Of a stretch of 64,000 nucleotides of DNA, positions 43,235 to 56,840 are shown in pieces. The notes beneath the pieces were generated by a model. The model was not told where the DNA came from. It did not search any database and saw only the letters and a list, made by a program, of their open reading frames with translations. The position numbers were made by a program, and so were the translations under genes. Origin of the DNA: an uncultured Gammaproteobacteria bacterium (GTDB taxonomy: Bacteria; Patescibacteriota; Patescibacteriia; UBA9934; CAZDDW01); the NCBI GenBank assembly GCA_965231015.1, contig OZ246408.1:481237-545236 (forward strand), given 5' to 3'. Numbering within the stretch: the first letter of the stretch is position 1; every line of letters starts with the position of its first letter.

Positions 43235-43350
43235 TTGCTGTTAGGCGCTGTCGCGAGCGGAGCGAGCGGCAAAGCGCCGACAGTCGCAGCCCGTTATATT
43301 CCTCGAAGGGCTGAAATTCAGTGCAACGTCCCGAAGGGCTGGCGAGCGTA
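43235..43350. repeat. GC-rich repeat element R0 (partial; contains GTTAGGC and GTGCAACG modules)
   Basis: It shares sub-modules with R1/R2, such as agtgcaacg...cgaag and gttaggcg. Confidence 0.5.
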
Positions 43351-43366
43351 ATAAATACCATTAAAT

Positions 43367-43726
43367 TTATTGCAATTTCTTGAGCATTCTTTCAACTATT
43401 CTTTGAGCTTGTCTTCCGGCGGCAGCGTGTATAAGGTCAAACATATCTCTTGATAGTGCTTCACACTCTCCTGTTTTTGAATCGACTTTGTATCCGGTAA
43501 AATTTTCTGAAACATCTGATGTTTTTTCGATTTCTTGAAGAAAATCAATTAATTCAGATCGAGGAACACCGCCGCCTTGATCAGGATTTTGTTCTAAAAT
43601 TTTTCTTAATGCTTGAGCTCTTTCTGGACTAAAATGTTTTGTTAATTCAGATAACTCTGCCGTCTTTTCTTTTGCTTGTTCGGCAAGGTCTCTGAGCTCT
43701 GTTGGTTGTTCTGATCCTTTTTCCAT
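43367..43726 (-). CDS. hypothetical protein (119 aa)
   Basis: It is a clean ORF preceded by repeat R1, with no domain found. Confidence 0.5.
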   Translation of the reverse strand: MEKGSEQPTELRDLAEQAKEKTAELSELTKHFSPERAQALRKILEQNPDQGGGVPRSELIDFLQEIEKTSDVSENFTGYKVDSKTGECEALSRDMFDLIHAAAGRQAQRIVERMLKKLQ

Positions 43727-43754
43727 AAGTTATAAATTTAATGGTATTTATTAT

Positions 43755-44058
43755 GGCGTATAACGGCCGGCGGCTATGCGACGTGGTCCGGAGACGAGCT
43801 TGCTCGTCGACGGGCCATGTCCGCATAGCTGACTGTTGTGCGATGTCGCGTAGCGACGAGCGCAACAAAAGGCGTAGCCGCCGGCCGTTGTGGCGAAGGA
43901 GCGAAGCGATTTCGCCACAACGTTTGCGTGTATCTGATGTTTTGCGGAGCAAAATATGGGAGATCGAAGTGCAACGAGTGAACCGCATATGCTGTGTTAG
44001 GCGAGCCGAACGGAGTGATAGCGAAGTGAGAGTGCAACGTGCCTTTAGCGTATTTTTG
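43755..44058. repeat. GC-rich hairpin-rich repeat element R1 (core module A + module C)
   Basis: A ~170-bp core is nearly identical to R2 and R3: a 14-bp perfect inverted repeat ACGGCCGGCGGCTA...TAGCCGCCGGCCGT encloses ~90 nt, followed by the hairpin GTTGTGGCGAA..TTCGCCACAAC. Arg-rich ORFs inside it are artefacts of GC-richness. Confidence 0.8.
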
Positions 44059-44115
44059 AAAAAATTATCATTATTATTCTTTTGTTGTTGGTCTTTTTAT
44101 AATTGTTGATTGCTA

Positions 44116-44520
44116 TTAACCAAATACTGCAAAACCTTCCCCAAATACCCTTGATGAAACCGCACTTAATATGATAACGCCAACAAGTAATGTCACCATT
44201 ATAAAAATAACTTCTCCAAGAATAACTTTTTTATATAACTTACCCAGCTCACTCTCACACGTTTTTTTCAGAAATTCAGATAAAAATTTTTCTTTGAAGT
44301 AGAAATATAAACCTAATAATATAAATAAGGTTCCTACAAGTAAATTGATGACAAAACCAATGCGAGATAAATAAATACTACCAATGATAATCAATCCACT
44401 TGTTATCCAAAGAAAAATCGTCAAATAAGTTGCGAACTGTAATAATTTTAATTGTAAGTTATTTTTCATAATGTTTAGTCTGAATAAATTAATTTTTATA
44501 TACTCCAACAACAAAAACAT
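44116..44520 (-). CDS. hypothetical integral membrane protein (4 TM)
   Basis: Hydrophobic helices are present. The 5' end of the tracked ORF overlaps a repeat motif, so the start was trimmed. Confidence 0.45.
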   Translation of the reverse strand: MFLLLEYIKINLFRLNIMKNNLQLKLLQFATYLTIFLWITSGLIIIGSIYLSRIGFVINLLVGTLFILLGLYFYFKEKFLSEFLKKTCESELGKLYKKVILGEVIFIMVTLLVGVIILSAVSSRVFGEGFAVFG

Positions 44521-44815
44521 TTTAAAAACAAATTTTTCAAAAATATGTCGCCTAACGTTCAAGTATATGAGAAGTTTCGCACACTCCTTATTAAAATTCA
44601 ATAATGTGTGTGCGAAATTTGGGTAAAAGAAATTGCGCCCCCGCTAAAAGTTAAGAAGCGTAATTTCTTGAACCTCTTATACTTTGTTGTACGATGTTGG
44701 CTTTCCATTTTATTCGATTTTTTGGGGAGTTTTCGGTCGTTTGCAATTGACAGGCGGGGAGCAACTTGCTATTATTCAAAGTCGCAATTCCGCGACCAAC
44801 GAAGGAGGTTTATCA

Positions 44816-45102
44816 TGAGTGACAAGACGAAGAGGCGACCGGCACACGAGATCATCATGGGGATGATACACGAGGCGTACAGAGATCTGGCTTCTGCCGA
44901 TAAGGGGCAGGAAGAACGGCATGCTGTTCGGATTCAGACTCTGTGCCAGGTGATGACTGACATGTTCATCCCCGAGGAATTGATGCCTCAGCTGACCAAT
45001 CAGCTCGAAATGGCCACCCGAGTCCCCATCATCGCCGATGTGGCCTACCTGGTGCACGAGGACATTCAGCGTCTCATGGGCAGGCTCATGTACGACGAGT
45101 AG
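44816..45102 (+). CDS. GC-rich hypothetical protein (95 aa) with strong SD (AAGGAGG 8 nt upstream); only plus-strand gene in the island
   Basis: Its composition differs from its neighbours. There is an RBS, and start is MSDKTKRRPAHEIIMGMIHEAYRDL. Confidence 0.5.
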
Positions 45103-45221
45103 AACGCCCCGCCGCCATCCGCTTCACCAACCCCCGTTCGGACAACATGTCCAGCAGGGGTTCATTTTTTATAGAGAAAACTGCCCAAATAATTGAATTG
45201 GAAAAGAGAAAAATGGAAAGC

Positions 45222-45345
45222 CAATTTCGCCACAACGTTCCTGCGTATGCGATGTTTGCTAGTGGTATAATTGCACGAAGTGCTTACCACTGGCAAATAT
45301 GGGTGCAGTGAGGAGGAGGTACAACGACGAACGGAACCGCATATT
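45222..45345. repeat. partial repeat R2' (module B: hairpin CCAGTGGTATAATTGCACGAAGTGCTTACCACTGG)
   Basis: It is near-identical to the right half of R3. Confidence 0.7.
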
Positions 45346-45350
45346 CTTTG

Positions 45351-45899
45351 TTATATGATGTTTTTGTGTGACACGTCATTAAGATAAAACAATATTGCAA
45401 TCAATGATATACCGTCTGATATTTCCTTGTTTTCAATCAGTTCTTTGACTTTAGCAATAGAGAGCCAATGGATTTCATTGACTTCATCTGTATCAAAATC
45501 TATTTGTTTAGAACTATCAGCTTCACCAATAACTACATGTGTCGTTTGGTTTGACATTCCGTTTGAAGGATTGAAAGAATAATGGAGTTTTAATGCCTTC
45601 GTTCTAAACCCAGTTTCTTCTAGCACTTCGCGTTCAGCGGCTTTCAAAATATCCTCGCTTTTATCGATTCCACCGGCGGGTAATTCCCACTGAATCTGTT
45701 GGGTTGTATAGCGAAGTGCTTTTATGAAGCAAATGTCTTTTTTATCGTTGGTCAACAAAACGACTACAGAATCGTTTGGATAGTCTAAAAAATGGTATTT
45801 TTCAATAATTTTACCAGAAGGCATTAAAACCCTGTCTGTATAGAGGTTGATCCATTGGCTCTCGTAGATTGTTTTTCGCTCTAGTCTTTCAGGTAACAT
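45351..45899 (-). CDS. NUDIX hydrolase
   Basis: It carries the Nudix box GGIDKSEDILKAAEREVLEETGF. Confidence 0.85.
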   Translation of the reverse strand: MLPERLERKTIYESQWINLYTDRVLMPSGKIIEKYHFLDYPNDSVVVLLTNDKKDICFIKALRYTTQQIQWELPAGGIDKSEDILKAAEREVLEETGFRTKALKLHYSFNPSNGMSNQTTHVVIGEADSSKQIDFDTDEVNEIHWLSIAKVKELIENKEISDGISLIAILFYLNDVSHKNII

Positions 45900-45943
45900 A
45901 TCTTGATTGTATTAGTGTCACACAAAAATTTCACACAACGGCC

Positions 45944-46240
45944 GGCGGCTATGCGACGTGGTCCGGAGACGAGCTTACTCGTCGACGGGCCATGTCCGCA
46001 TAGCTGACTGTTGTGCGATGTCGCGTAGCGACGAGCGCAACAAAAGGCGTAGCCGCCGGCCGTTGTGGCGAAGGAGCGAAGCGATTTCGCCACAACGTTC
46101 GCGTATATCTGATGTTTTGCGGAGCGTAGCGGAGCAAAATATGGGAGAGCGACGGCAGGAGCGAACCAGATATACGCTGTTGTGCGAGGGTGAGCGACGA
46201 TAGGAGCGAAAGTGCAACGACCCCGAAGCGTATTTTTCAA
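45944..46240. repeat. GC-rich repeat element R2 (core module A + modules C and D)
   Basis: See R1. The core 45944..46115 is nearly identical. Confidence 0.8.
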
Positions 46241-46359
46241 TATTTTTTCATTCTTTATTATTTTGTTGAAGAATTTTATTATTATTTGGAATTTTTATTT
46301 TTTCGTTTTTCTTTTTCCAAGAGGGATTAGGGGTGAATTGGAAAAAGAAAAACACCTTA

Positions 46360-47840
46360 CTAAAAAAATCCTCTCATTTTCTCAATAGACTGTTTTAGCT
46401 GTTTTATATCGGGTTTTCCATTATCTTTTTGATGATGAATTTGATTTCTCAAAAATGTATGAATAGTTACTTCATTTTGATTTCCTTTCCATGGAGAATC
46501 TTTTGTTTCTTGTTTTTCACTTTGAAAATAATCTATATCAAATTTTTTGATTGCTTTAGTAATGGTTTCCTTTGTTCCGTCTTTTTTTTCTATTTCTTCT
46601 TGTCCATGTTTAAATATTAATTCTTCGTATAATTCGTTGTGATATTCTTCAGTTGCTAACCCAAAAGCAATAAAATTTACTTCGTTAGCTGAAACATATG
46701 GTAAAACTCTTTTTTCTAATTCTAAAATTTTTACTTCTTCATTTTCTTTCTCTAAGCAATGAATTTGAATTTTGCTATTGTCATTATTTAATGTTTGTTT
46801 AACAAAAAGTGGAGAGTGAGTAGAAAATAGAAATTGATTTTTTTCAGAAATTGAAACTATGTGGTTAATAAAATTATTTTGTAAATCTGGGTGCAAATGT
46901 AGTTCTGGCTCATCAATTAAAATCAAAATGTTTTCTTTTGAAATTTCTGCCATTGTTTCTAAAAATAATAAGGAAACAACCATTTCAACACCTGATCCAA
47001 GTTGAGATATCGGCAAATCTAAACTTTCTAATTTTTGAGAAAGAAAAGCACTATCAAAAGGTGCGTTACAATCAATTAGTGAAAGATCTGCTTTCGGTAA
47101 GCCGACTTTTTCAAGTTTTTCGTTTAATGTCTGAAATGTTTTTTGTTGTGATTTTTCGTCAATTTTTTCTAAAACGCTTGTTTCAAAATTATTTTTTTGA
47201 GTTGTAAATTTTTCTCCGTCAAAATCTTCCTTTGTTTCATTTTTTTTATTTCTTTATTAAATCTCCAATTAAAATCTTCAAAAACTGACGAAATGGAAGA
47301 ATTAAACCCTCTCTGTAATTGTTTTTCTCTGTTTTTTGGAAAATAAAAACTTTTTGGCAACCCTTCTGATTCCAAAGGAAAAGATAACTGTCTTTCATCA
47401 AATTTAAATTTTGTTCCTGTCCCTCTTGTTATCTCCCAGCCATTTTCATTATCTTTTTCTCTGTTTGGTAAAACATAATGAGACACAACAACAATATCTG
47501 AAAATGCTTTTTTAGGAGTTGCCCTATCTCTCTTTTTTATTTCCAAGCAAACTTTACTGCATTCAACATCTTGTTTAGTATAGCCGTCAGGTAAAAAGAT
47601 TTTAAAGTTTTCATTAAATTCTAAAATAATCTTTATTTCAACATCTTCGCCTTTATAAAAATCTGTATGTTTTATTCTTCCTGATAAAAAATAAGGAGAA
47701 AGACAAAAATTTATTGCTTCCAAAATAGAGGTTTTACTTGTTCCATTTTCACCAACAAGCAAAGAAAGATTTTTTAGTTCAAAATCTTTTAATTCTTTTA
47801 TGCCTCTAAAATTTTGGATTGTGATTGTCTTTATCTTCAT
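46360..47840 (-). pseudogene. AAA_21/ABC-like ATPase (OLD/RecF-type) disrupted by frameshift(s): N-part 47169..47840, C-part 46360..47016
   Basis: The N-terminal part has Walker A (LLVGENGTSKTSILEAINF). The C-terminal part has the signature and Walker B (SQLGSGVEMV...LILIDEPELHLHP...STHSPLF). The roughly 150-nt gap between them contains T8 homopolymers. Confidence 0.55.
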
Positions 47841-47860
47841 AACTTTTTTATTTAAAAAAT

Positions 47861-48943
47861 CTAAACTCCCACAAAATATCTATTCTCTTCTTTTGTGGCA
47901 AAAACTTTTTCTTCTTTTTTCTTGTGTATCGATTCTGTTTTTGGCGTTTGATTCATTTTTTCATTCTTCTGTATTCTTTTATTTCTGATTAAAATTCTAA
48001 AATATGGACATTTTCCATTTATAGACAAATCTTTTTCGTCATTTCCTTTTCTGAATTTAATTATTTCAAACTGATCTGGGTTGAATTTATGTAAAAAAGT
48101 TATCGGTACACCCATAACACCTGAATAATCCAAAGGAATATTTTGTGTTTTATTCACATTAATTCCATGATAATTATCATAATGAGGATACTCAGTTTCG
48201 TTTCCAAAATATTTCTTAGTAAGAGGAATATCTTCGTGTCTTTTAGAAGTATCTAAATTGGTGAGCCATAGACAATTATTTGGGGAGACTATTCTATTTC
48301 CAAAGTCATCAATACGGGCTTCTGTTCCATAAAGCTCATAATGTTCTGGAACAATAAAGCCTGAAATACCTCTACCTAGATTTATTCCTAACCACGCTTT
48401 ACTTCTCTTAATTAATTTAAAAATTTCTTTGTAGGTTATAGCATTAATATTGCCAATAATCAGAAATTTCTTATCATATTTAACCAATTGATCTACGTGC
48501 TCTCTAAATAATGAAAATGGTGGATTAGTAACAACTATATCGGATTGTTTTAATAACTGGATACTTTCCGCACTACGAAAGTCCCCATCCCCTTTAAAGT
48601 GAACAATATCATCTGAACTTGGCTTTGTTTTTTCATCTTGAGCACCTGTATATTCATAAAAAAATCCACATTCAGATACCTCAGTATTAAATAAATTTCT
48701 TTCTTGTTTTTTATAACAAGCCGCTATTAATTTTTTAAGTCCTAGCTCTTTGAAGTTTAAAGCAAAATAATGAAAAAAATTACTAATTTTTGGATCATCG
48801 CAATTACAAAAAACCACTTTGTTTTTAAAATGATCTTTATAATGTTGCAATTCGCTTTCTATATCTGAAAGTTGAGTGTAAAACTCATCACTTTTTGATT
48901 TTTTAGCTTTTTGCAGTAATGTATTTGTTGCATTTCTTGCCAT
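47861..48943 (-). CDS. N6-adenine DNA methyltransferase, M.EcoRI family
   Basis: The N-terminus MARNATNTLLQKAKKSKSDEFYTQ...VVFCNCDDP is near-identical to M.EcoRI as recalled. The NPPF motif is present (IVVTNPPFSLF), and the C-terminus reads GKCPYFRILIRNKRIQK. Confidence 0.85.
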   Translation of the reverse strand: MARNATNTLLQKAKKSKSDEFYTQLSDIESELQHYKDHFKNKVVFCNCDDPKISNFFHYFALNFKELGLKKLIAACYKKQERNLFNTEVSECGFFYEYTGAQDEKTKPSSDDIVHFKGDGDFRSAESIQLLKQSDIVVTNPPFSLFREHVDQLVKYDKKFLIIGNINAITYKEIFKLIKRSKAWLGINLGRGISGFIVPEHYELYGTEARIDDFGNRIVSPNNCLWLTNLDTSKRHEDIPLTKKYFGNETEYPHYDNYHGINVNKTQNIPLDYSGVMGVPITFLHKFNPDQFEIIKFRKGNDEKDLSINGKCPYFRILIRNKRIQKNEKMNQTPKTESIHKKKEEKVFATKEENRYFVGV

Positions 48944-48970
48944 AATCAAATTTTATAAATAAAATTTTAG

Positions 48971-49806
48971 TTATTTGCTCTTAGTTATCTGTTTAAATAT
49001 TTCACTTCCTAATACTTGAAGAGAGGTTTTTGAAATCTCAATCATAATGTTAAACATCTCTTTTGCATCCCATTTTTCTCCATTGCCTTGTGTATATATT
49101 GAAGTTGCCTGAAGCATAATTGTTTTATCTTTGTGTTTAACAAATTTATTTTTACACAGATTAGTATTAATTGGCATTCCATAATTTGCAGAGGTCAGCC
49201 TATCTAACCTATTTAACATTCCTGAATTGTATTCAAGTGTCACAACCCTTCCATCAGGTCTTTTAATTGAAATAGTTTCTGTTAAAAAATTTGACCCCTC
49301 CAAAAATAAGATATATGGAAAATGGGATTCATATAGCATAAAGTTGGCAATTTCTGATATGTTTTTATGTGATCTTTCTATCGCGTTACCGGCAGCCATC
49401 AAGTCTTGATTGTTGTTTATACCAACTTGATTTCCTTTCAGTATATTTTCAATGTCTTTCCCTTGATGTTTAGCCTCCGTTACAAGTAATACTCTCCAAT
49501 TATCGCTATCGTCTTTTACTTCTATTATTCCGCCATCAGGTTTAATGCTTGAATTTGATACAAAAATAGTTTGTCCTAACTCTGGATCAATTTTCTTTAA
49601 TGCTTCGTTTATTTCTTCCTTTTTTATGCTTGTTCTATATCTAAAAGATAATTGAGGAAATTCTTTTTCAAGTTGTTCAATTACAAGATGTGAAATTTTA
49701 CCAACACTTATATCATGCGATTTTGCGTTTTCTCCAAATATACCAACTACTCCGTGAGATTTTTATGCTGATTTGTTAATCTTTTAGATTGATTCTTTTT
49801 AGCCAT
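48971..49806 (-). pseudogene. EcoRI-family type II restriction endonuclease, N-terminal frameshift in T5/A5 run at 49760..49764
   Basis: The region downstream of the frameshift matches R.EcoRI closely: GVVGIFGENAKSHD, PQLSFRYRTSIKKEEINEALKKIDPELGQTIFVSNSSIKPDGGIIEVKDDSDNWRVLLVTEAKHQGKDI and QDLMAAGNAIERSHKNISEIANFML. The N-terminus MAKKNQSKRLTNQHKN is in the -1 frame; one extra A restores the full ORF. Confidence 0.8.
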
Positions 49807-49894
49807 ATTGTTTTTTGAATAAGTAAGGTGTCTTTATTATAGTGTTTTTTTATAAAAATTTAAAATTCATTTTTTGCGGAAGTATGAAGCAAAA

Positions 49895-49918
49895 AATACC
49901 ATATATCCCCCTCATTAA
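49895..49918 (-). promoter_or_regulatory. motif ATGAGGGGGATATATGGTA (minus sense) about 110 nt upstream of the EcoRI-like R start; related copies upstream of C gene
   Basis: The same about 19-nt motif occurs twice at 56629..56647 and 56681..56697. Confidence 0.4.
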
Positions 49919-49981
49919 AATAAAAATTCCATTCCTTTTTAAATTCTTCAACAAAATTCTTTATTTGAGAAAAAATATTGA

Positions 49982-50150
49982 AAAATATGTCGCACAACGT
50001 TAGGGCTATACGAAGTTTTTCGACCGAAGGGAGAAAAATTTGGAGAAATGGCGAGCCGAGCCATTTCTCGTATAGCCCTTGTTATACGAGGGTGAGCGAC
50101 CAACGGGAGCGAAAGCGCAGCGTCCCCTTGCGTATGACGCAGGCAGGCGA
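49982..50150. repeat. partial repeat R3' (modules sharing AAAAATATGTCGCNNAACGTT and GAGGGTGAGCGAC..GGAGCGAAAG with R2 and 44539..44600)
   Basis: The same sub-modules occur in R2 and at 44539..44600, as seen by eye. Confidence 0.5.
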
Positions 50151-50156
50151 TTTTCG

Positions 50157-50936
50157 TCAGTCCATCTTTTTCATTGGTTTATTGGGATCAACATTATCAT
50201 AATAAAAGTCAAAACCCAGCTCATCAAAAATATTCTCAAATTCTGTAAATACTTGTTCCACCACTTTCTGAAGTTTGGCAAAATTTTGGTACTCACCATT
50301 AATAATGATTTGGAGTAAGTCGTCAAAATGCTCAGGCTTCTTTTTGAATTTCTTTGCTTCTTCTATGAATTTTGCAAATGTTGTATAAGGCTTCTGATTT
50401 AGAAAAGTTAATGTTATTAACATGTAATTGCACATGTCAAATACCAAAAGGGAAATGCCAAGTTTGTTTTTTTTCGTGATAGCATTTAGAACTTTAGCAG
50501 TTGATTCTTGTAGGTCTCCGAAGTGATGAATGATCTGCTTGTGACACTTTTCTTTAAGGTTCTTAACTTTGTAATTGTTGAGACGATCTATAAAAGGTTT
50601 ATTGATGAGTGGAAGTAATTTATCAGAACCGGAAAGAAACCAATCAGGCGTGGGCTCTTTCACTGTTTTTATGTATGAGTCTTTAGTCATCCAAACCAGT
50701 TCAACCAGAAGACCATCACGGATTTTGCCCATGCCCGCCCAGGTTTTACCTCTTGGCATTTCCCGAACAAATGCAATTAACTCTAAATCAGAATAGCCAA
50801 AATCTTCGTTTCTAGCAAAAGAAGCCTGAGCCGCTAATGCAATAAGATTTTTGCCAAACTTCTTTTTGATAAGTGGAACAAGTTCTTTAACTACTTGCTC
50901 TCTTTCTTTATGAGAATATTTTTGTAGACCACGCAT
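50157..50936 (-). CDS. nucleotidyltransferase of the ANT(4')/KNTase/Lnu superfamily (NTase domain + KNTase_C-like helical domain)
   Basis: The sequence KEREQVVKELVPLIKKKFGKNLIALAAQASFARNEDFGYSDLELIAFV matches the pol-beta-type NTase motif ([GA]S...SD[LI]E[LM]). The protein is 259 aa. Confidence 0.6.
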   Translation of the reverse strand: MRGLQKYSHKEREQVVKELVPLIKKKFGKNLIALAAQASFARNEDFGYSDLELIAFVREMPRGKTWAGMGKIRDGLLVELVWMTKDSYIKTVKEPTPDWFLSGSDKLLPLINKPFIDRLNNYKVKNLKEKCHKQIIHHFGDLQESTAKVLNAITKKNKLGISLLVFDMCNYMLITLTFLNQKPYTTFAKFIEEAKKFKKKPEHFDDLLQIIINGEYQNFAKLQKVVEQVFTEFENIFDELGFDFYYDNVDPNKPMKKMD

Positions 50937-51014
50937 AGTGTTAGATAGTTTATATTAGTATATAAATATTGCTGGGTTTTGACCATCTTAGAAAATCGCC
51001 TGCCGAGTAATATT

Positions 51015-51300
51015 TCGTATAACGGCCGGCGGCTATGCGACGTGGTCCGGAGACGAGCTTACTCGTCGACGGGCCATGTCCGCATAGCTGACTGTTGTGC
51101 GATGTCGCGTAGCGACGAGCGCAACAAAAGGCGTAGCCGCCGGCCGTTGTGGCGAAGGAGCGAAGCGATTTCGCCACAACGTACCTGCGTATGCGATGTT
51201 TGCCAGTGGTATAATTGCACGAAGTGCTTACCACTGGCAAATATGGGTGGAGGCTTGCGGAGGTACGGAGCAAGCCGTAACCGCATACGCAGTGTTAGCT
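51015..51300. repeat. GC-rich repeat element R3 (core module A + module B)
   Basis: See R1. The core 51020..51185 is nearly identical. Confidence 0.8.
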
Positions 51301-51364
51301 GATGTATTCCTTTTCTTTTCGACGATAGTCGTTTGTTTTAAAAATTTTCAAATTTCTTTTTCCG

Positions 51365-51473
51365 TTTTGGGTGGTGGGCAGAGGGGAATTAAAGGGGTGA
51401 ATGCCCGCCACCCAAAACACCTATTTCTGTTTGAGGGAGGGGCAAGAGGGGAACAAAAGGGGTGAATTGCCCC
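51365..51473 (-). terminator. two tandem GC-rich hairpins directly after the Ppl-like gene stop, loops sharing GAGGGGAAYWAAAGGGGTGAAT
   Basis: Hairpin 1 is TTTTGGGTGGTGGGC..GCCCGCCACCCAAAA. Hairpin 2 is GGGGCAA..TTGCCCC. Both are flanked by A/T runs. Confidence 0.5.
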
Positions 51474-51486
51474 GACCGAAAACATG

Positions 51487-54339
51487 TTATTTGTTTAACA
51501 AATATTTCCTTTCTCGCTGTCTAAAGGCTTCCTCTCCACCTTCAAGAATATCTCTTATATTTTTGTTTATTTCTGGATTTTCAATACTGCCTGATAAATA
51601 GCCTAATTCTTGATCTAGCCTTGCTACGATTATTTGTTCGGCATCCGCATTAACTACTAGATTAGCGTTGTGGGTCGACATTATGATTTGTCTTGATTGT
51701 TTGGCCTTCCGGATGAGTGGGACAAGTTCATTCATTATGAAATTGTTATCAAGGTTGTCTTCAGGTTGATCTATAATGAAAACTTGTTTTGCCGTTGCAG
51801 TAGCTAAATAGACTTTTAGTAAAAGGGTTCCTCTTTGTCCGATAGATAAAATTTCAGTTGCCTTTCCATTTAACTTTGCAATTGCTTTTACTCCCAAGAA
51901 GTCAGCCCATTCAGTGAAAATGTAATATGTGATTCCGCTGATTCCATCACGACTAAAACATTTTTGTTCGCCTAGGTCAGTTTTTTGTATCCATACTGAT
52001 AGATTCTCAAAGGTTATTTCTCGGGGCGTTCCGTCTTCATTTGTGCCAGCTATCATTTTTTTCAGATCAGTTTCATTTGCTACTTTCCGGTTATCCAGAA
52101 AATCATCCAATACACGCTTAGCAAACTTTTTGAAATTAAATTCAATTTTTCCCTCAACTTCAATGCCATTGATAATTTTTTCGAATAGTTCCTTCTCTTC
52201 GGCTGTTGAATCATCGCGTGAATTTTGAAAATCTTTAAATGCTTGTGTGATGGCATTTCGTAGGGCAAGTAATGAATTACTGATTTGTTCCAAGATTTTT
52301 CTTTTCTCCTCATGCAAGTCCACCAATTGTGTTATTGACCGATTGTAATTCTCAAGATCTTTTCCAATGTTGCTTATTTGGCGTTGTAAATTTTCACTGG
52401 CCTGTAATAAGGTATTAACATCTTCCTTAATACCCTGTTCAATAAGTTTCTTTTTTAGAGCAATGATTTCTTCTCTCAATTTAGTCATATCTGCCTCAAT
52501 TTTTGTCTGTAATTCGCTAAGTACTTTTGTCTGTTTGCTGATATTTAGACCCTCAATCTCTTCGTTGTCGGGGTAGTGGTTTTTTAGAATAATGTTGAAG
52601 TTGGCTATTTCTTGTGTGATTGGCAATTCACGAAGGCCTAGCAGTAGTGTGTTTGCTTTTTCTTTCAACTCTTTAAGCTTAAGTCCTTTTTCAGTTTTTT
52701 TATTTATTTCATCAAGTGTCTCCTTTGTTTCTTTTGATGAGAGTCTTTTTTGTTGGTCTGTAAGTTTTGCTAAATAGCTTGCTATCCATTTTTCCAAGTC
52801 TTCGCCCTCGGTATATCCAAGCTCTTTATACCGTTCAATAATGTCTCGGGTACGTTGCTGGGTATTATCAATATCACCAAGTACATCTCGTGCTTTTGAA
52901 GTTAAAACTTCTTGGCCTATTTCGTTAACGTCAATGCCAATCAAATCGCAAACAGTTCGTGTTAGTTCAAAATCATTTGTTGCAATACCGCTTAGCCTTT
53001 CTTGTCCTAGGTACAAAAATGGTAATTCAAGATTTGTTTTATCCGAAAGTTCCTTCTCAAATTCAGACATATCACCATCTTTATCTATCAATGAAGTTTT
53101 GAATGTATAAGAAGGACGTGGCTCTGTTCTTGCTTCATTATCTCTATAATATTCAATAATCTTTTTCTTATTGTTTTGATCTAATTTTAAATGTTCCTCA
53201 TTAAGAAAAGCGAAAGTATCAAGCAGAGCACTTTTTCCACTTCCTCTACCGCCAATTAATGCTATAAGCTCTCTATTTAATAGTATTTCTAAGTCAGGCA
53301 AAACAAAATTTTTACTTCCAGTTAGTTTTATTGAATCAAAATATATTTTCTTTTTTTCTTCGTATGGGTTCTGTTCTTGAATTTTTACTCTTTCCGAAGG
53401 TTCAAATAGTAATTGTTTCAGCCCGTCAAATGTTGGGTTGGATTTAATCCATGTATATCTTTTATTGTCTGGTTCAAATAACTTTTCGTAGGTGTGGGAA
53501 TCTGACCCCCAAATGCATGGTTTAAGGCTTTTAAATTCATTAATGTATTCTTGGGGATTCTCATGCTTTCTTCCAAGACCCCAATTTATCGTAGCTTGAT
53601 TTGAACTGATAAGTACATCAGATTTTTGAATATAAATTTTTCTTACATTATGATCTTGTCCATCCCAAGAAATTTTACTTAAATCTTCATCAGAAGGTAC
53701 ACACATCATATACATGCCTGCAAATTTCGATTTCTTATTAGTTAGTATTTCTGCTATCTGAGTGTGATTTACTACCGCACACTTCATGCCGACAAATAAG
53801 TCAGTATCTGAGTTAAACTCTGCGTGCTCTTTCTTTAGACTTTGACCCAACGTTTCAAGGTTGGGAATTTTTAATTTCCATTTTTCATCAGTGCCTTGAG
53901 GATTTCCTTCATAAATAAAATCTAATTCGTGGAGGAAATTTTCTTCAATATCTGTAATTAAAACTTCATCTGAAAAAATCACATGAAAATTTACTCGGTT
54001 ACCATCTACTAACGTATCAAGGCGAAATTCTACATTTGGGAACAGTTTTATTTTTTTAATTTGCTTAATTTCTTTATCCGTAAATAGTTCAGCAAGCTTG
54101 GTGTCATTATTCAGGTACTCCTGCTTTATCTTCTTATATCCTTCAATGCAGAAGTAATCAGTAATTCCTATAACCGCTATCTGCTTTTCAATGGCAGCTT
54201 TAAAAAGCTTTTTAACATATTCATCGAAGTCATCGCCAAAGCCATTACTTAAATGCGAAAAGGGAGTATGAACCTGTAAATCCCATTTTCTCCAAATCGA
54301 CCCCCTTTGAAACTGATTGTATTTAACTTCGTCAGACAT
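51487..54339 (-). CDS. PHP-domain phosphoesterase fused to SMC/ABC-type ATPase with coiled-coil (Ppl-like single-gene defence candidate)
   Basis: The N-terminal PHP motifs are WDLQVHTPFSH, NVEFRL, NFHVIF and GSDSH. Walker A is LIGGRGSGKSALLDTF, followed by a long coiled-coil middle. The C-terminus has Walker B/D-loop FIIDQPEDNLD and H-loop MSTHN. Confidence 0.7.
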   Translation of the reverse strand: MSDEVKYNQFQRGSIWRKWDLQVHTPFSHLSNGFGDDFDEYVKKLFKAAIEKQIAVIGITDYFCIEGYKKIKQEYLNNDTKLAELFTDKEIKQIKKIKLFPNVEFRLDTLVDGNRVNFHVIFSDEVLITDIEENFLHELDFIYEGNPQGTDEKWKLKIPNLETLGQSLKKEHAEFNSDTDLFVGMKCAVVNHTQIAEILTNKKSKFAGMYMMCVPSDEDLSKISWDGQDHNVRKIYIQKSDVLISSNQATINWGLGRKHENPQEYINEFKSLKPCIWGSDSHTYEKLFEPDNKRYTWIKSNPTFDGLKQLLFEPSERVKIQEQNPYEEKKKIYFDSIKLTGSKNFVLPDLEILLNRELIALIGGRGSGKSALLDTFAFLNEEHLKLDQNNKKKIIEYYRDNEARTEPRPSYTFKTSLIDKDGDMSEFEKELSDKTNLELPFLYLGQERLSGIATNDFELTRTVCDLIGIDVNEIGQEVLTSKARDVLGDIDNTQQRTRDIIERYKELGYTEGEDLEKWIASYLAKLTDQQKRLSSKETKETLDEINKKTEKGLKLKELKEKANTLLLGLRELPITQEIANFNIILKNHYPDNEEIEGLNISKQTKVLSELQTKIEADMTKLREEIIALKKKLIEQGIKEDVNTLLQASENLQRQISNIGKDLENYNRSITQLVDLHEEKRKILEQISNSLLALRNAITQAFKDFQNSRDDSTAEEKELFEKIINGIEVEGKIEFNFKKFAKRVLDDFLDNRKVANETDLKKMIAGTNEDGTPREITFENLSVWIQKTDLGEQKCFSRDGISGITYYIFTEWADFLGVKAIAKLNGKATEILSIGQRGTLLLKVYLATATAKQVFIIDQPEDNLDNNFIMNELVPLIRKAKQSRQIIMSTHNANLVVNADAEQIIVARLDQELGYLSGSIENPEINKNIRDILEGGEEAFRQRERKYLLNK

Positions 54340-54342
54340 AAA

Positions 54343-55419
54343 CTATTTGATAAATCGTATTTGCAGGTTGAGTTTGATAAACATTTCGCCGTTTTCTTCG
54401 TAAACTGTGCCGTATCCGTGGCGTGTTGCACTTGGTGATTCCATGCGAGTGTTATTAAACAAGTAATTTCGAAACGCTTCCGCATTATAAAGATGATAAC
54501 AAACGATTTCGCCGTCTTCACGAACCACAATCACTCCACCGTGGGCACGCAAGGTACCGTCCCATGCACTGGCGGGAACCATTCCGAGAGCTGCATTATT
54601 GAGTAATGCTTTGATTTTGTAGGCGTAGTCTTCGGTGGAAAGTTTGAAATTCAAAATTTGCATTTTTTCATCTTGCAAGTGTTGCAATAATTCCGGGAAA
54701 GTTGCGCCTTTGTCAGAGAAATAAGCCAAAAGAACTTCCGCCATTATTTCTGGCATGATCGTGTCGATTTTTCGTAAGTTTCGCTCGAAAACTTCGGAAT
54801 CAATGCCGTGAAACGCAAACGCTCCGCCCGCTTCACGAATTGCGAAAAGGCGATCACGAATTTTTGCCTTTGTATCAATTGTATTTATTTCTTCAATTTT
54901 TCGTTCATCAAGTCCTGTGATTTTGTATGTAAAGTTAGTTGCTCCCGAAGCGTTGAGAAGTGTTGCGGGTGAACCGAGTTTTGATTTGATACTGAATCCT
55001 ATTTCGTGATCTCGTCCGATCGTGTGATCATGGACTTTCAAAATCAAATCTTCTTTCCGTGCATTTCCGGCATTGAGGGTTTTTATTCCAAAGCGTTCAA
55101 AAAGTTCGTCCGCAAGTGGGACGGAAAAGGTTTGTGATTTTTCTTTAATCTCCGCAAATACTTCAACGACTTTCGATTTCAAATCGGAGGTGTCTACGAT
55201 TGTGGTTTCGCCGTCAATGTGCAAGATTTTCACTTTTTCTCCTTCTTGCAATTCGTATTCCGATTTCCCCTCGGTCTCCTCACGGATTATTTTCAAAATT
55301 GGAAAAAAGACCGCTTCGATTTTTTCGAGTTCTTCATCAGCTCCGATGATTTTTTTATCGACGAGAAGTTTTATAAAAGCATAAAACTCGCTCCATTCGC
55401 CTTTATTTCCTGTGATCAT
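54343..55419 (-). CDS. type II restriction endonuclease candidate (HpaII-like family by N-terminal GNKGEWSE.Y...KLL pattern; assignment tentative)
   Basis: It lies immediately downstream of, and 3'-overlapping, a C5-MTase in a C-M-R arrangement. Motifs GNKGEWSEFYAFIKLL and SIKSKLGSPATLLNASGATNFTYKI are present. Confidence 0.5.
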   Translation of the reverse strand: MITGNKGEWSEFYAFIKLLVDKKIIGADEELEKIEAVFFPILKIIREETEGKSEYELQEGEKVKILHIDGETTIVDTSDLKSKVVEVFAEIKEKSQTFSVPLADELFERFGIKTLNAGNARKEDLILKVHDHTIGRDHEIGFSIKSKLGSPATLLNASGATNFTYKITGLDERKIEEINTIDTKAKIRDRLFAIREAGGAFAFHGIDSEVFERNLRKIDTIMPEIMAEVLLAYFSDKGATFPELLQHLQDEKMQILNFKLSTEDYAYKIKALLNNAALGMVPASAWDGTLRAHGGVIVVREDGEIVCYHLYNAEAFRNYLFNNTRMESPSATRHGYGTVYEENGEMFIKLNLQIRFIK

Positions 55420-56320: not shown

Positions 56321-56322
56321 AG

Positions 56323-56532
56323 TTATTTTATTAAGTCGTTAATGTCCACTTCAAGTGCTTGCGCAATTTTTGTCATTGTTTCGATTGTTGGGTTTCCGTT
56401 GTTTCCTGATTCTAAAGTAACAATTGTATTGAGTGCGACATCAGCAAGTTTTGATAGTCGGTCTTGCGATATCCCTTTTTCGGTACGGATCTTTTTTAAG
56501 TTCTTACCTATGTTTGCAATGTTTGGTTTCAT
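56323..56532 (-). CDS. XRE-family HTH protein, R-M controller (C) protein candidate
   Basis: The sequence is MKPNIANIGKNLKKIRTEKGISQDRLSKLADVALNTIVTLESGNNGNPTIETMTKIAQALEVDINDLIK. It lies directly upstream of the MTase. The start was set at an internal ATG. Confidence 0.7.
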   Translation of the reverse strand: MKPNIANIGKNLKKIRTEKGISQDRLSKLADVALNTIVTLESGNNGNPTIETMTKIAQALEVDINDLIK

Positions 56533-56609
56533 ATACCAGTAGAATGTAATAGTTACACTGGTTGTATTGTATCGTGTCTGAAATGCTTGGTCAATTCTTA
56601 TAAATAAAT

Positions 56610-56705
56610 GTTCCGCCGACAGGCGGAACTCCATATATTCCCCTCATCAAAAAAGCGTTTCCGTAGCTTTGCGGAGGAAACACCATATTTCCCCTTATAA
56701 AAAAG
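56610..56705. promoter_or_regulatory. two tandem units of [GC hairpin + CCATATWTCCCCT motif] upstream of the C gene
   Basis: Unit 1 is GTTCCGCC gaca GGCGGAAC + tccatatattcccctcat. Unit 2 is GTTTCCG tagctttg CGGAGGAAAC + accatatttcccctta. Confidence 0.45.
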
Positions 56706-56840
56706 AAAAAGAAATTTGAAAATTTTTTAAAACAATTGGGCGATAGCCCAGAAAAGAAAAGGAATATTTCAGCTAACTCGTTTATATGTGAAGTAAAGTT
56801 CGGATAAAGTATGGATTTAAGATAATATCCGATCCTAATC

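What the first reader, a model, noticed from the sequence alone, without database searches (positions are those of the whole stretch)
43235..51300. Novel GC-rich, hairpin-rich modular repeat family (three ~300 bp copies plus partial copies) confined to the island
Full copies lie at 43755-44058, 45944-46240 and 51015-51300. Partial copies lie at 43235-43350, 45222-45345, 49982-50150 and 44539-44600.

The shared ~170-bp core (module A) is nearly identical in all three full copies. It has a 14-bp perfect inverted repeat ACGGCCGGCGGCTA / TAGCCGCCGGCCGT enclosing ~90 nt with nested hairpins (GACGAGCTTGCTCGTC, GCTATGCG.../...CGCATAGC). It is followed by a second 11-bp stem GTTGTGGCGAA / TTCGCCACAAC.

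Copies differ by swapping 3' modules. Module B is the hairpin CCAGTGGTATAATTGCACGAAGTGCTTACCACTGG, which contains a TATAAT. Module C is ...GCGTATATCTGATGTTTTGCGGAGC...AAAATATGGGAGA... Module D is GAGGGTGAGCGAC..GGAGCGAAAG.

GC content is far above the host average. The Arg-rich ORFs inside (43741..44109, 45958..46203, 50979..51302) are artefacts. On the gene-sense (minus) strand each core sits 30-80 nt upstream of the next start codon (119-aa gene, NUDIX, ANT).

Candidate roles are: (i) structured sRNAs or cis-acting mRNA leaders; (ii) recombination sites of a non-canonical cassette system; (iii) a MITE-like element. The first 7-mers of the canonical attC core (GTTRRRY) are not present at the junctions, which argues against a classical integron.
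Basis: seen in the sequence. Interest (0 to 1): 0.85.

Follow-up and report, generated by a model that had tools for sequence, protein, structure and literature searches.

The report
Integron-like cassette array recombination sites
The GC-rich repeats are the hairpin-forming recombination sites (attC-like) that separate ten mobile gene cassettes, mostly anti-phage genes, in an integron-like array of a tiny-genome Patescibacteria (CPR) bacterium; in relatives such arrays sit next to a simple Xer-like recombinase that lacks the protein domain thought to be essential for integrons.

Summary
The repeats are real: three near-identical 189-nt copies, plus partial ones, found only in the island.

They are not a new RNA or a MITE. 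On the gene-sense (minus) strand every unit reads ACATC/CCCTC-RYYYAAC-A-[L'' 11-12 nt]-variable hairpins-[L']-(G)AAC-G|TTRRRY-GAAAT. That is attC architecture.

The island (56777 to about 43240) consists of an attI-like site followed by ten cassettes:
- HpaII R-M plus a Ppl-like ATPase
- a KNTase
- EcoRI R-M plus an AriA/Old-like ATPase
- a NUDIX protein
- three small genes

The same core occurs in two other MAGs. In one of them it ends a cassette array that runs divergently from a tyrosine recombinase.

Around 80 metagenomic homologues of that recombinase, attC signatures are 5-9 times enriched upstream on the opposite strand. L boxes covary, and a dif-like attI lies 80-160 nt from the gene.

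The recombinase lacks the IntI additional (I2) domain. The sites lack the canonical G/T extrahelical bases. Cassettes carry long terminal inverted repeats, and identical termini enclose unrelated cargo.

No recombinase gene lies in this window, so the array is CALIN-like.

Verdict: a new variant of the integron kind. Recombination was not tested.

The parts
56771..56848 (-). attI-like site. It has a distal repeat AGGATCGGATATTATC (56836->56821), a proximal repeat ACTTCACATATAAACGA (56794->56778) and the first crossover core G|TTAGCT (56777->56771). It abuts the PBP2 stop codon. No recombinase gene is adjacent.
   Evidence: It aligns with the sites found 80-160 nt upstream of the recombinase start in 14 other loci. 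Sequence read.
51180..56776 (-). Cassette 1 (5597 nt). It carries an HTH protein, M.HpaII, R.HpaII and a 950-aa Ppl-like ATPase, and ends with attC_B3.
   Evidence: Pfam and PADLOC matches. Boundaries. The homologous cassette in L024 lies in an array next to a recombinase (82-86% identity).
56699..56777 (.). 5' terminal inverted repeat of cassette 1. Its partner is 51294-51368.
   Evidence: I7 (27 nt, 93%) and I3/I6 (33-36 nt, 78-91%).
51294..51368 (.). 3' terminal inverted repeat of cassette 1, including R'' AGCTAAC (51300->51294).
   Evidence: I3, I6 and I7.
Layout: R'' AGCTAAC, A, L'' CTGCGTATGCG, a branched variable region, L' CGCATACGCAG, GTAC, R' G|TTGTGG.
51023..51179 (-). Cassette 2, an 'empty' 157-nt cassette.
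49998..51022 (-). Cassette 3 (1025 nt), carrying the KNTase/ANT gene. It has 14-nt inverted repeats at 50991-51004 and 50134-50147, module D at 50088-50150, and attC_E at 49992-50087.
   Evidence: The cargo plus its inverted repeats recur in a different attC frame in L086.
46096..49997 (-). Cassette 4 (3902 nt). It carries a split R.EcoRI, M.EcoRI and a split AAA_15 (AriA/GajA/Old-like) gene, then module D (46186-46230) and attC_C2 (46090-46185).
   Evidence: Its termini are shared with L008, which carries a different R-M system.
49917..49987 (.). 5' terminal inverted repeat of cassette 4. Its partner is 46231-46300.
   Evidence: I16 (19 nt, 100%) and I2 (41 nt, 73%).
45939..46095 (-). Cassette 5, an empty 157-nt cassette: the mini-cassette plus attC_A2 (45933-46068).
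45236..45938 (-). Cassette 6 (703 nt), carrying the NUDIX gene. It has 25-nt inverted repeats at 45915-45939 and 45350-45374, and attC_B2 (45230-45356), whose L box is degenerate.
   Evidence: (I11).
44556..45235 (-). Cassette 7 (680 nt, 48% G+C), whose ORF is on the opposite (+) strand. It has inverted repeats at 45210-45229 and 44692-44711, and an AT-rich attC at 44550-44692.
   Evidence: I19.
43921..44555 (-). Cassette 8 (635 nt), carrying a small membrane-protein gene. It has 52-nt inverted repeats at 44494-44545 and 44051-44102, module D' at 44003-44050, and a hybrid attC_C1 (43915-44002) whose L'' and L' do not pair.
   Evidence: I1.
43764..43920 (-). Cassette 9, an empty 157-nt cassette: the mini-cassette plus attC_A1 (43758-43893).
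43240..43763 (-). Cassette 10, carrying the 119-aa gene. It has 22-nt perfect inverted repeats at 43732-43753 and 43349-43370, and a module-D-like stretch at 43306-43348. Its terminal site (43240-43299) has R'' ATATAAC and L boxes but ends in GCCTAAC instead of GTTRRRY.
   Evidence: I10.

Best explanation
**What it is.** The repeats are attC-type recombination sites of an integron-like gene-cassette array in the chromosome of a Patescibacteria (CPR) bacterium. Its SerRS is closest to that of Candidatus Uhrbacteria, and the genome is about 1.0 Mb.

**Layout, shown here.** The top strand is the minus strand. An attI-like site at 56771-56848 is followed by ten cassettes. Each cassette starts with TTRRRY and ends with its own hairpin site:
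- R'' (RYYYAAC), then a 1-nt spacer
- L'' (11-12 nt), then a branched variable region, then L'
- a 3-4-nt spacer, then the G of the next G|TTRRRY

It is a 21-nt body plus the 136-nt attC_A.

**Mechanism, inferred.**
- A roughly 270-aa Xer/IntI-like tyrosine recombinase binds two duplex arms of the folded single strand or extruded cruciform. These are the R box and the L box.
- The consensus arm is 5'-AYWTC-NN-MTAA.
- The enzyme cleaves after ...RYYYAA|C on the bottom strand, which equals G|TT on the top strand.
- Strand exchange with another attC excises a cassette. Exchange with the double-stranded, dif-like attI inserts one, as in integrons.
- The enzyme is encoded next to such arrays in relatives but is not in this 64-kb window.

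**Departures from the canonical system.**
- The recombinase lacks the IntI additional (I2) domain.
- The sites have perfect L boxes without the G/T extrahelical bases, and an asymmetric 1/3-4-nt central spacer.
- In the circular cassette the hairpin is lengthened by cassette-specific terminal inverted repeats of 14-75 nt.
For: **Architecture in the window**
- R''/L''/L'/R' are present at every junction.
- The sequence-only signature C[AC]TC-NNNN-AACA hits the minus strand nine times inside the island and only three times elsewhere in the window. It hits the plus strand twice.
- In 6 of 9 cassettes the TTRRRY at the 5' end is the exact complement of that cassette's own R'', which is the integron rule.

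**Same element elsewhere**
- The attC_A stems were found in two MAGs.
- In L005 (Patescibacteria) the element closes an array of methyltransferase and HD cassettes that runs divergently from a tyrosine recombinase.

**Association with the recombinase**
- Around 80 recombinase homologues, half-signatures number 95 upstream on the opposite strand. The other three compartments hold 19, 11 and 20, over 270 kb upstream and 291 kb downstream.
- Every full site except one weak candidate (L063) has this orientation.

**Structure is conserved, not sequence**
- Sites were paired using flank motifs alone. Of 64 such pairs, 22 have perfect L stems of at least 11 nt. With swapped partners, 1.3% reach 8 nt or more.
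- In the 39-site alignment, 79.7% of cells pair, against 66.4% when shuffled (0 of 500 shuffles as high) and 22-40% when the partner is slid. Eight of 11 L-box pairs change on both sides.

**attI-like site**
- It is conserved in 14 loci and in the window.
- In L014 it reads ACTTCGCATAA-TAACGAG-TTATCGGAAAT, an 11-7-11 pseudo-palindrome.

**The recombinase**
- The catalytic residues R, K, H, R, H and Y are invariant.
- It scores 220 bits against NF040815, which NCBI names 'site-specific tyrosine recombinase/integron integrase', and 179 bits against TIGR02249.
- Alignments to VchIntIA and IntI1 skip the additional domain.

**Mobility**
- Cassette 1 recurs in L024 as a cassette next to a recombinase.
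- The ANT cassette has a different neighbour in L086.
- There are hybrid attCs.
Against: - No recombinase gene lies in the 64-kb window (tblastn). The attI-like site abuts PBP2, so this array may be a fossil or be served in trans.
- Recombination was not observed. Contigs from the same population are identical to the window.
- The defining IntI domain and the G/T extrahelical bases are absent. Canonical mechanism cannot therefore be assumed.
- IntegronFinder's attC model could not be run.
- The strand that folds cannot be inferred, because the L boxes contain 0 G.T and 1 A.C.
- Two observations do not follow the simple 'gene travels with its attC' rule. The ANT cargo sits in a different attC frame in L086. 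Identical termini enclose unrelated cargo.
- The 39 aligned sites were partly chosen by pairing energy. Only the motif-only test is free of that bias.
- Recombinase homologues below about 45% identity mostly lack such arrays.
Confidence: 0.8

Rival explanations
1. The platform is a Xer/dif system rather than a dedicated integron. On this view the recombinase is the cell's single chromosome-dimer resolvase and the 'attI' is the chromosomal dif site. The cassettes would be hairpin-carrying IMEX-like elements stacked at dif, much as CTX phage single-stranded DNA mimics dif.
For: - The enzyme is as close to archaeal XerA as to IntI, and it lacks I2.
- The family is very widespread in CPR: 7300 hits at E<1e-20, all about 270 aa.
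- Smyshlyaev et al. (PMC8138268) list a Xer-like 'Cand' subgroup for candidate phyla.
- The attI-like site has an 11-7-11 dif-like layout next to the gene. From prior knowledge, difSL/xerS and difH/xerH are arranged the same way.
- The window's site lies 23 kb from the GC-skew and gene-orientation switch at 33-34 kb. With the array removed the distance would be about 10 kb.
- The attC arms are perfect duplexes, as expected of a mimic of a double-stranded site.
Against: - In the window the site is not at the skew switch, and it has no adjacent recombinase gene.
- No second dif-like site could be sought genome-wide.
- A strict scan for arm pairs in the window found none.
- Distant homologues show no clear palindrome upstream.
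- This reading refines the best explanation rather than excluding it. Cassettes, hairpin sites and the G|TT crossover stay the same.
Confidence: 0.25
2. The modules are exchanged by conventional double-stranded site-specific recombination, like Acinetobacter pdif modules. On this view the palindromic 5' halves are incidental.
For: - The 3' half of each site resembles the double-stranded attI-like site. It reads ACWTC-NNATAY-spacer-G|TTRRRY-GAAAT.
- Each cassette is flanked by inverted arms.
Against: - L'' and L' covary while their sequences differ between sites. A double-stranded half-site would not need this.
- The spacers are asymmetric: 1 nt against 3-4 nt.
- The sites are 88-143 nt long with branched tips, not 28-bp cores.
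Confidence: 0.08
3. The repeats are structured RNAs, either sRNAs or 5'/3' UTR elements such as leaders or terminators, that are duplicated between genes.
For: - The folds are very stable, with z down to -11.5.
- Module B contains a TATAAT.
- The sites lie between genes. From prior knowledge, canonical attC sites can also affect transcription and translation.
Against: - There is no Rfam family at the gathering threshold or at E<=10.
- Both strands fold about equally well.
- There are 0 G.U-type pairs in 264 L-box pairs.
- There is no T-run after the stems.
- The sites keep one orientation relative to the recombinase gene, not to the neighbouring ORF. Cassette 7 has its ORF inverted, yet its site is not inverted.
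Confidence: 0.03
4. The repeats are a MITE/REP-like selfish repeat family that spreads by transposition.
For: - There are several near-identical copies with terminal inverted repeats.
- They are GC-rich in an AT-rich setting.
Against: - There are no target-site duplications.
- There are no copies outside the array in 64 kb.
- There is no match in plasmid or viral collections.
- Copy ends coincide with the shared AAC/GTT cores.
- No transposase is present.
Confidence: 0.03

Closest known systems
Integrons: IntI, attI and attC gene cassettes. In IntegronFinder's terms this window holds a CALIN, a cluster of attC sites lacking an integrase.
   Same: - The array consists of mostly promoterless, co-oriented cassettes.
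- Each cassette ends in an imperfect palindrome with RYYYAAC and GTTRRRY cores and a second (L) pair.
- The crossover is at G|TT.
- The 5' TTRRRY of a cassette is complementary to its own R''.
- The integrase gene is divergent, with an attI 80-160 nt from it (seen in relatives).
- Cargo is rich in defence genes, as reported for sedentary chromosomal integrons (bioRxiv 10.1101/2024.07.02.601686, abstract seen).
   Different: - The recombinase lacks the IntI-specific additional/I2 domain.
- Most sites have no G/T extrahelical bases. Where an extra base exists, it is on the L' arm.
- The central spacer is 1 nt against 3-4 nt. In the class 1 attCs folded here with the same script it is 5 nt against 6 nt.
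- Conserved flanks ACATC/CCCTC and GAAAT are present and are absent from class 1 sites.
- Terminal inverted repeats of 14-75 nt extend beyond the 12-bp R arm. Class 1 cassettes show only about 12 bp.
- A subclass of sites has a 45-63-nt 'module D' in front of R''.
Vibrio cholerae repeats (VCRs) of sedentary chromosomal integrons
   Same: Long (about 120-136 nt), highly similar attC copies recur through one chromosomal array. This comparison is from prior knowledge.
   Different: - Here only the three attC_A copies are near-identical. The other sites differ in L-box sequence.
- The integrase type and the geometry of the sites differ, as described for integrons above.
IMEX elements and CTX phage integration by XerCD at dif
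   Same: - A Xer-type enzyme without I2 acts on a folded single-stranded hairpin that mimics a duplex core site.
- Elements stack in tandem at one site.
- Escudero et al. 2020 (PMC7790495) proposed such ss-IMEX hijacking as a route to integrons.
   Different: - Here the units are single-gene cassettes in a long ordered array, with attC-type R/L boxes. They are not phages or genomic islands.
- It is not shown that the site is dif.
Acinetobacter pdif modules (XerC/XerD-dependent)
   Same: Small gene modules are bounded by inverted recombinase-binding arms and shuffled among replicons. This comparison is from prior knowledge.
   Different: - pdif sites are 28-bp double-stranded cores without covarying hairpins.
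- pdif modules do not form an array polarised from a recombinase gene.
Single-recombinase Xer systems with dif next to the gene (XerS/difSL, XerH/difH) and archaeal XerA
   Same: - The protein is about 270 aa with invariant catalytic residues.
- The best NCBIfam match is the XerA model NF040815, at its cut-off.
- An 11-7-11 site lies beside the gene.
   Different: Those systems resolve chromosome dimers and, as far as I know, have no cassette arrays attached.

Membership tests
Integron attC site | Inverse core R'' (RYYYAAC) and core R' (GTTRRRY) lie at the two ends and pair with each other. Recombination occurs at G|TT, which is AA|C on the bottom strand (PMC7439510). | tested here: met
   - All sites carry NNNNAAC ... 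GTTNNNN, for example AGCTAAC/GTTAGCT, GCACAAC/GTTGTGC and GTATAAC/GTTATAC.
- Copy identity breaks at the AAC/GTT cores.
- The consensus is looser than RYYYAAC: it is R-Y-A/C-Y-AAC.
Integron attC site | There is a second pair of binding boxes (L''/L') whose sequence is degenerate but whose pairing is kept. | tested here: met
   - Eight of 11 L-box pairs change on both sides.
- 79.7% of cells pair, against 22-40% when the partner is slid.
- The motif-only control supports the same pairing.
Integron attC site | Two extrahelical bases, typically G and T, are present in the folded bottom strand. | tested here: not met
   - 24 of 39 sites have perfectly paired 11-nt L boxes.
- Some sites (L005, L014, L038, and 44550-44692 in the window) have one extra base, but on the L' arm.
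- The class 1 aadA2 attC folded with the same script shows the expected bulge on the L'' arm.
Integron attC site | An unpaired central spacer separates the R and L boxes. | tested here: inconclusive
   A spacer exists but is asymmetric: 1 nt (A) against 3-4 nt ((G)AAC/ATAC). In attC_A it is 0/0. In the class 1 sites it is 5/6 nt.
Integron attC site | The site is detected by the IntegronFinder attC covariance model. | not testable with these tools
   The model is not available here. Rfam holds no attC family that matched.
Integron (complete) | An adjacent intI gene encodes a tyrosine recombinase with the IntI-specific additional domain (PMC9668308; PMC8138268). | tested here: not met
   - There is no recombinase in the window.
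- The array-linked recombinase of relatives scores 179 bits against TIGR02249, below the 265-bit cut-off.
- It lacks VchIntIA residues ~207-247 and the IntI1 ALERKYP region.
- Matches in the array-bearing loci span only 786-816 nt.
Integron (complete) | An attI site lies beside the integrase gene, at the head of the array. | tested here: met
   - A conserved site lies 80-160 nt upstream of the recombinase start in 14 loci. It has two direct TTCGYATAA repeats and G|TTRRRY-GAAAT.
- The window has a matching site at 56771-56848 but no gene beside it.
Integron (complete) | Cassettes are mobile units: the same cassette appears in different contexts. | tested here: met
   - attC_A with its mini-cassette occurs three times here and in L004 and L005.
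- Cassette 1 recurs in L024.
- The ANT cassette is followed by a different cassette in L086.
- Excision and integration themselves were not observed.
Rfam RNA families | A match to a curated covariance model. | tested here: not met
   - Only one tRNA in the window reaches a gathering score.
- Nothing better than E = 1.2 is found in 43000-51600.
MITE / REP elements | Terminal inverted repeats with target-site duplications, and copies dispersed in the genome. | tested here: not met
   - Copies occur only inside the array.
- The flanks are the shared AAC/GTT cores, not duplications.
pdif-type Xer modules | 28-bp double-stranded XerC-spacer-XerD sites lie in alternating orientation around the modules. 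| tested here: not met
   - The sites are 88-143-nt covarying palindromes, all in one orientation.
- No convergent arm pairs with a spacer of 4-10 nt were found in the window.

The most novel reading that the evidence does not exclude
This may be a living 'I2-less integron'. On this reading a Xer-type recombinase, possibly the cell's own dimer resolvase acting at a dif-like site, assembles arrays of hairpin-bearing cassettes. That would match the missing intermediate that Escudero et al. 2020 invoke for the origin of integron integrases.

In addition, the cassettes may be built as constant hairpin 'shells': an attC plus 14-75-nt terminal inverted repeats. Unrelated cargo would be swapped into these shells. 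If so, this offers a handle on how cassettes are made, which is an open question in the field.
Probability: 0.3. Interest if true: 0.92.

Novelty: new variant of a known kind. Interest (0 to 1): 0.77.

Why it matters
Integron integrases are thought to have gained single-stranded attC recombination by acquiring the I2 helix. No intermediates are known (PMC7790495).

Here attC-type hairpin arrays are systematically linked to a recombinase without that domain, in a major and poorly studied bacterial radiation. Two readings follow, and both are testable with a standard conjugation-based recombination assay:
- I2 is not required for hairpin recombination.
- These sites are handled as mimics of double-stranded sites.

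There are practical consequences as well:
- Standard integron finders require the IntI domain. They would therefore call these arrays at best orphan attC clusters, and gene mobility in CPR genomes would be underestimated.
- The arrays are defence islands (two R-M systems, a Ppl-like ATPase and an AriA/Old-like ATPase). They help explain how genomes of about 1 Mb keep a changing anti-phage repertoire.
- The 'same termini, different cargo' pairs bear on how cassettes originate.
- The repeats also explain why short-read assemblies break at this locus.

Tried and rejected
- **Rfam.** Searches at the gathering score and at E<=10 gave nothing relevant.
- **Exact-protein look-ups of cassette genes.** NUDIX is not on record. 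ANT is found only on 1-kb contigs identical to the window. Short-read contigs break at the repeats.
- **First strict hairpin scan.** It required perfect stems of at least 8 nt and missed sites with one bulge or a 3-nt spacer. An energy threshold of -14 kcal/mol missed AT-rich sites. I relaxed it to -9/-10 kcal/mol with shuffled controls: 191 real hits against 50 in the shuffled control.
- **Strand of folding from G.T against A.C mismatches.** This was uninformative because the L boxes are perfect.
- **dif-like pairs.** I looked for convergent arm pairs in the window and for generic 11-N6-8-11 palindromes upstream of distant recombinase homologues. Nothing stood out above shuffles, apart from the attI regions already found.
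- **Consensus fold of the four attC_A versions.** The Y-shaped fold is kept, but four sequences give too little covariation to prove the inner hairpins.
- **Other collections.** The core was not found in viral contigs or plasmids.
- **Covariance model.** None was built. Trimmed-site alignment plus motif and energy scans answered the question, and a model with a 50-100-nt insert in the loop would have been insensitive.
- **Literature.** Searches for integrons in CPR/Patescibacteria found no description of such arrays. The library lacks most papers from subscription journals, so this does not prove that none exists.

Full report
**1. Observation**

The repeats exist as described. A 189-nt core occurs at 43762-43950, 45937-46125 and 51021-51209 at 93-100% identity (alignment A1). 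Its 19-mer AACGGCCGGCGGCTATGCG is found nowhere else in the 64 kb, with 0 matches expected from shuffles. The composites fold far better than shuffled sequence on either strand, with z between -5.7 and -11.5. They are 64% G+C, against 29-38% for the neighbouring genes. No Rfam family matches.

**2. Setting**

The repeats lie in a 14-kb island between greA (42032-42490) and the PBP2 gene (56841-58805). Almost all island genes are on the minus strand:
- an HTH protein, M.HpaII and R.HpaII
- a 950-aa Ppl-like ATPase
- a KNTase-type nucleotidyltransferase
- a split R.EcoRI and M.EcoRI
- a split AAA_15 ATPase of the AriA/GajA/PtuA/Old type
- a NUDIX protein
- three small ORFs

The host is a Patescibacteria/CPR bacterium. 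The window's proteins sit on a 1,002,985-bp NCBI contig. Its SerRS is closest to Candidatus Uhrbacteria and other CPR proteins.

**3. Anatomy**

On the gene-sense (minus) strand every repeat unit has one architecture:
- ACATC or CTCACCCTC
- R'' (AGCTAAC, GCACAAC, GTATAAC, ATATAAC, GTACAAC, GCCTAAC, CCACAAC)
- A
- L'' of 11-12 nt
- a branched variable region
- L', complementary to L''
- (G)AAC or TAC
- R' G|TTRRRY (GTTGTGG, GTTGTGC, GTTATAC, GTTGTGT, GTTAGGC)
- GAAAT or GACAT

These are the inverse-core and core sequences of integron attC sites.

- Modules B and C are the variable tips of two such sites (attC_B, attC_C).
- Module A is a 136-nt site (attC_A) with a 12-nt L box, GGCCGGCGGCTA.
- The '11-bp second stem' is R' of the preceding site, a 21-nt body, and R'' of attC_A. 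That makes a 157-nt cargo-less cassette, present three times.
- Module D is a conserved 45-63-nt extension in front of R''. It belongs to a subclass of sites and is also seen in other genomes.

Cutting at G|TT divides the island into ten cassettes. In six of nine, the first six bases are the exact complement of the cassette's own R''. This is what recombination at G|TT produces in integrons.

Some sites look decayed or rearranged:
- Two sites are hybrids or degenerate (43915-44002 and 45230-45356).
- The last site (43240-43299) lacks an R'.

**4. The same element next to a recombinase**

A scan of 185,579 species genomes for the attC_A stems found two MAGs.

In L005, a Patescibacteria MAG, the layout is that of an integron:
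- A tyrosine recombinase gene (793-1623, minus strand) is followed on the other strand by about 300 nt.
- Then come a gene-less cassette, a methyltransferase cassette and an HD-domain cassette. Each ends in a site of the architecture above.
- The array ends with the mini-cassette plus attC_A. Here the R'/R'' pair has changed on both sides, GTTGTGA/TCACAAC.

The recombinase:
- It scores 220 bits against NCBIfam NF040815, at that model's cut-off. NCBI names this model 'site-specific tyrosine recombinase/integron integrase'.
- It scores 179 bits against the integron-integrase model TIGR02249, below the 265-bit cut-off.
- It aligns to VchIntIA (2a3v) in two pieces that skip residues ~207-247.
- A 30-member profile aligned to IntI1 lacks the ALERKYP-containing insertion but keeps R, K, H, R, H, Y and the C-terminal SPL.
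- The family is large and almost uniformly about 270 aa.

**5. Is the association general?**

I fetched 80 metagenomic loci encoding relatives and scanned them.

- *Counts around the recombinase gene.* Half-signatures defined by sequence alone number 95 upstream of the recombinase on the opposite strand. The other three compartments hold 19, 11 and 20, for 270 kb upstream and 291 kb downstream.
- *Close relatives.* Nearly all loci whose recombinase is at least about 45% identical, and that have at least 1.5 kb of upstream sequence, carry sites. More distant homologues mostly do not.
- *Orientation.* Every full site except one weak candidate (L063) has the integron orientation.
- *Motif-only pairing.* I paired 5' and 3' flank motifs without looking at the stems. 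Of 64 pairs, 22 have perfect L stems of at least 11 nt. With swapped partners, 1.3% reach 8 nt or more.
- *Covariation.* On 39 trimmed sites, 79.7% of cells pair, against 66.4% when shuffled (0 of 500 as high) and 22-40% when the partner is slid. There are 124 double-sided changes against 51 in shuffles. Eight of 11 L-box pairs covary. These 39 sites were partly picked by pairing energy, so the motif-only test is the unbiased one.

**6. An attI-like site**

A conserved site lies 80-160 nt upstream of the recombinase start in 14 loci. It has two direct TTCGYATAA repeats, the proximal one followed by CGA-G|TTRRRY-GAAAT. In L014 it reads ACTTCGCATAA-TAACGAG-TTATCGGAAAT. This is an 11-7-11 pseudo-palindrome in which bottom-strand cleavage at the arm border coincides with G|TT. 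That reading is my inference.

The window carries a matching site at 56771-56848, immediately after the PBP2 stop codon. No recombinase gene is adjacent, and none lies anywhere in the 64 kb. In IntegronFinder's vocabulary the window holds a CALIN with a retained attI.

**7. How it differs from canonical integrons**

I folded the three attCs of a class 1 integron (blaVIM-1, aac(6')-Ib, aadA2) with the same script.
- They show 5/6-nt central spacers.
- They show the L''-arm bulge that gives the extrahelical G.
- They have no ACATC or GAAAT flanks.
- They have only about 12 bp of R-arm complementarity.

The CPR sites differ on each point:
- The spacers are 1 nt against 3-4 nt.
- The L boxes are mostly perfect. 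In 24 of 39 sites they are fully paired, with 0 G.T among 264 pairs.
- The flanks are conserved.
- The terminal inverted repeats are long.

In canonical integrons, extrahelical bases read by the I2 region are held to be the basis of attC recognition (PMC7439510; PMC7790495). Both partners of that interaction are missing here.

**8. Cassette termini**

Every gene cassette is bounded, just inside R' and R'', by cassette-specific inverted repeats. They measure 22 nt (100%), 25 nt, 20 nt, 52 nt, about 70 nt and about 75 nt. The same is seen in L009, L013, L014, L022, L038 and L041. In a circularised cassette these repeats would lengthen the attC hairpin beyond the R box.

Two pairs of cassettes share termini but not cargo:
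- Window 49997->46096 (EcoRI R-M plus AAA_15) and L008 7926->5811 (C5-methyltransferase plus ThaI-type endonuclease). They share about 135 nt at the 5' end (87%) and about 290 nt at the 3' end (94%).
- Window cassette 1 and an L086 cassette encoding an unrelated 948-aa protein.

The converse also occurs. The ANT cargo with its own repeats sits in a different attC frame in L086. I cannot explain these exchanges. They suggest that 'hairpin shell' and 'cargo' are separable modules.

**9. Mechanism**

Shown here:
- site architecture
- covariation
- polarity relative to the recombinase gene
- an attI-like site
- the same cassettes in different contexts

Inferred:
- The Xer/IntI-like enzyme binds the R and L duplexes of a folded strand or cruciform.
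- It cleaves after RYYYAA|C on the bottom strand.
- It exchanges strands with another attC (excision) or with the double-stranded attI (insertion).
- Replication resolves the product, as in integrons.

Unknown:
- which strand folds
- what replaces the I2 contacts with extrahelical bases
- whether the enzyme is also the cell's dimer resolvase
- whether this particular array is still active

**10. Rivals**

- *RNA element.* There is no Rfam hit and no wobble pairs. Both strands fold equally well. Orientation follows the recombinase rather than the neighbouring ORF.
- *MITE.* There are no duplications and no dispersed copies.
- *Double-stranded pdif-like exchange.* This is contradicted by covariation of the 5' half and by the size of the sites.
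- *Xer/dif-IMEX reading.* This is not excluded, and it is the most interesting variant. It would put the attI at dif. The window's site lies 23 kb from the GC-skew and gene-orientation switch at 33-34 kb, or about 10 kb once the array is discounted.

**11. Novelty and limits**

I found no description of such arrays in CPR in the searchable literature. That library is incomplete. NCBI's family name also shows that the enzyme's kinship to integron integrases has been noticed. I could not run IntegronFinder, see the rest of the genome, or observe recombination.

I therefore file this as a new variant of the integron kind, not as a member of the canonical family. Two of the canonical family's defining features were tested and not met: the IntI additional domain and the extrahelical bases.

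Noticed in passing
window 33000-34500: Cumulative GC skew peaks here and gene orientation flips: plus-strand genes at 26-33 kb, minus-strand genes at 34-64 kb. This is probably the replication terminus. It lies 23 kb from the attI-like site, or about 10 kb once the array is discounted.
   Followed up: partly
window 51356-51419, 51421-51484, 46310-46350; L008 ~6060-6095; L086 4089-4138: Hairpins lie just after the stop codon of the last gene of a cassette. Their stems differ but the 21-nt loop is conserved: GAGGGGAAnnAAAGGGGTGAA on the plus strand, C-rich on the mRNA strand. No T-run follows and there is no Rfam match.
   Followed up: partly
window 56727-56740 and 51320-51332; cassette ends in L028 and L041: Small hairpins with a conserved CTATCG loop and variable stems (GGGCTATCGCCC, CGACTATCGTCG, TTTGCTATCGCAAA) lie near cassette termini.
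   Followed up: no
window 49863-49998 and 46073-46359 versus L008 7784-7926 and 5811-6100; window 56671-56760 and 51168-51431 versus L086: Cassettes in different genomes share both termini at 80-94% identity, including the long inverted repeats and the attC. Their cargo is unrelated: EcoRI R-M plus an ATPase against a C5-MTase plus ThaI REase, and HpaII R-M plus a Ppl-like protein against an unknown 948-aa protein.
   Followed up: partly
window 43175-43195; L004 ~205-225 and ~495-515: The near-perfect palindrome CACATTCGCACGAATGTG lies upstream of the serine-hydrolase pseudogene. It occurs twice in L004, flanking a small HTH gene, and is probably an operator.
   Followed up: no
window 42575-43117, 46360-47840, 48971-49800: Three genes are split by frameshifts: the serine hydrolase, the AAA_15 ATPase and R.EcoRI. 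M.EcoRI is intact. This suggests decay of some cassette cargo.
   Followed up: no
window 45933-46068 (and the other two attC_A copies): attC_A contains an internal, standard-looking site: GACATC-GCACAAC-A-GTCAGCTATGCGG ... CGCATAGC. It also contains an internal GTTGCGC...GCACAAC mini-hairpin. Both are nested in the outer CCACAAC-GGCCGGCGGCTA stem, so attC_A may be a compound or nested site.
   Followed up: partly
window 44608-45102 (+ strand): The only cassette ORF on the opposite strand lies in a 48% G+C cassette. It has no Pfam or PADLOC match, which suggests a foreign origin.
   Followed up: no
window 39840-41927: The lysyl-tRNA synthetase carries a C-terminal HD domain.
   Followed up: no
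L004 3730-3990, 4440-4610, 5230-5410, 7860-7960: A second family of repeats of about 150 nt (…AAAATGACCATAAGCGACGAAAACAAAACAGCCCTTCCGGATT…) lies between small genes, beside the single attC_A copy. It may be another type of cassette site.
   Followed up: no
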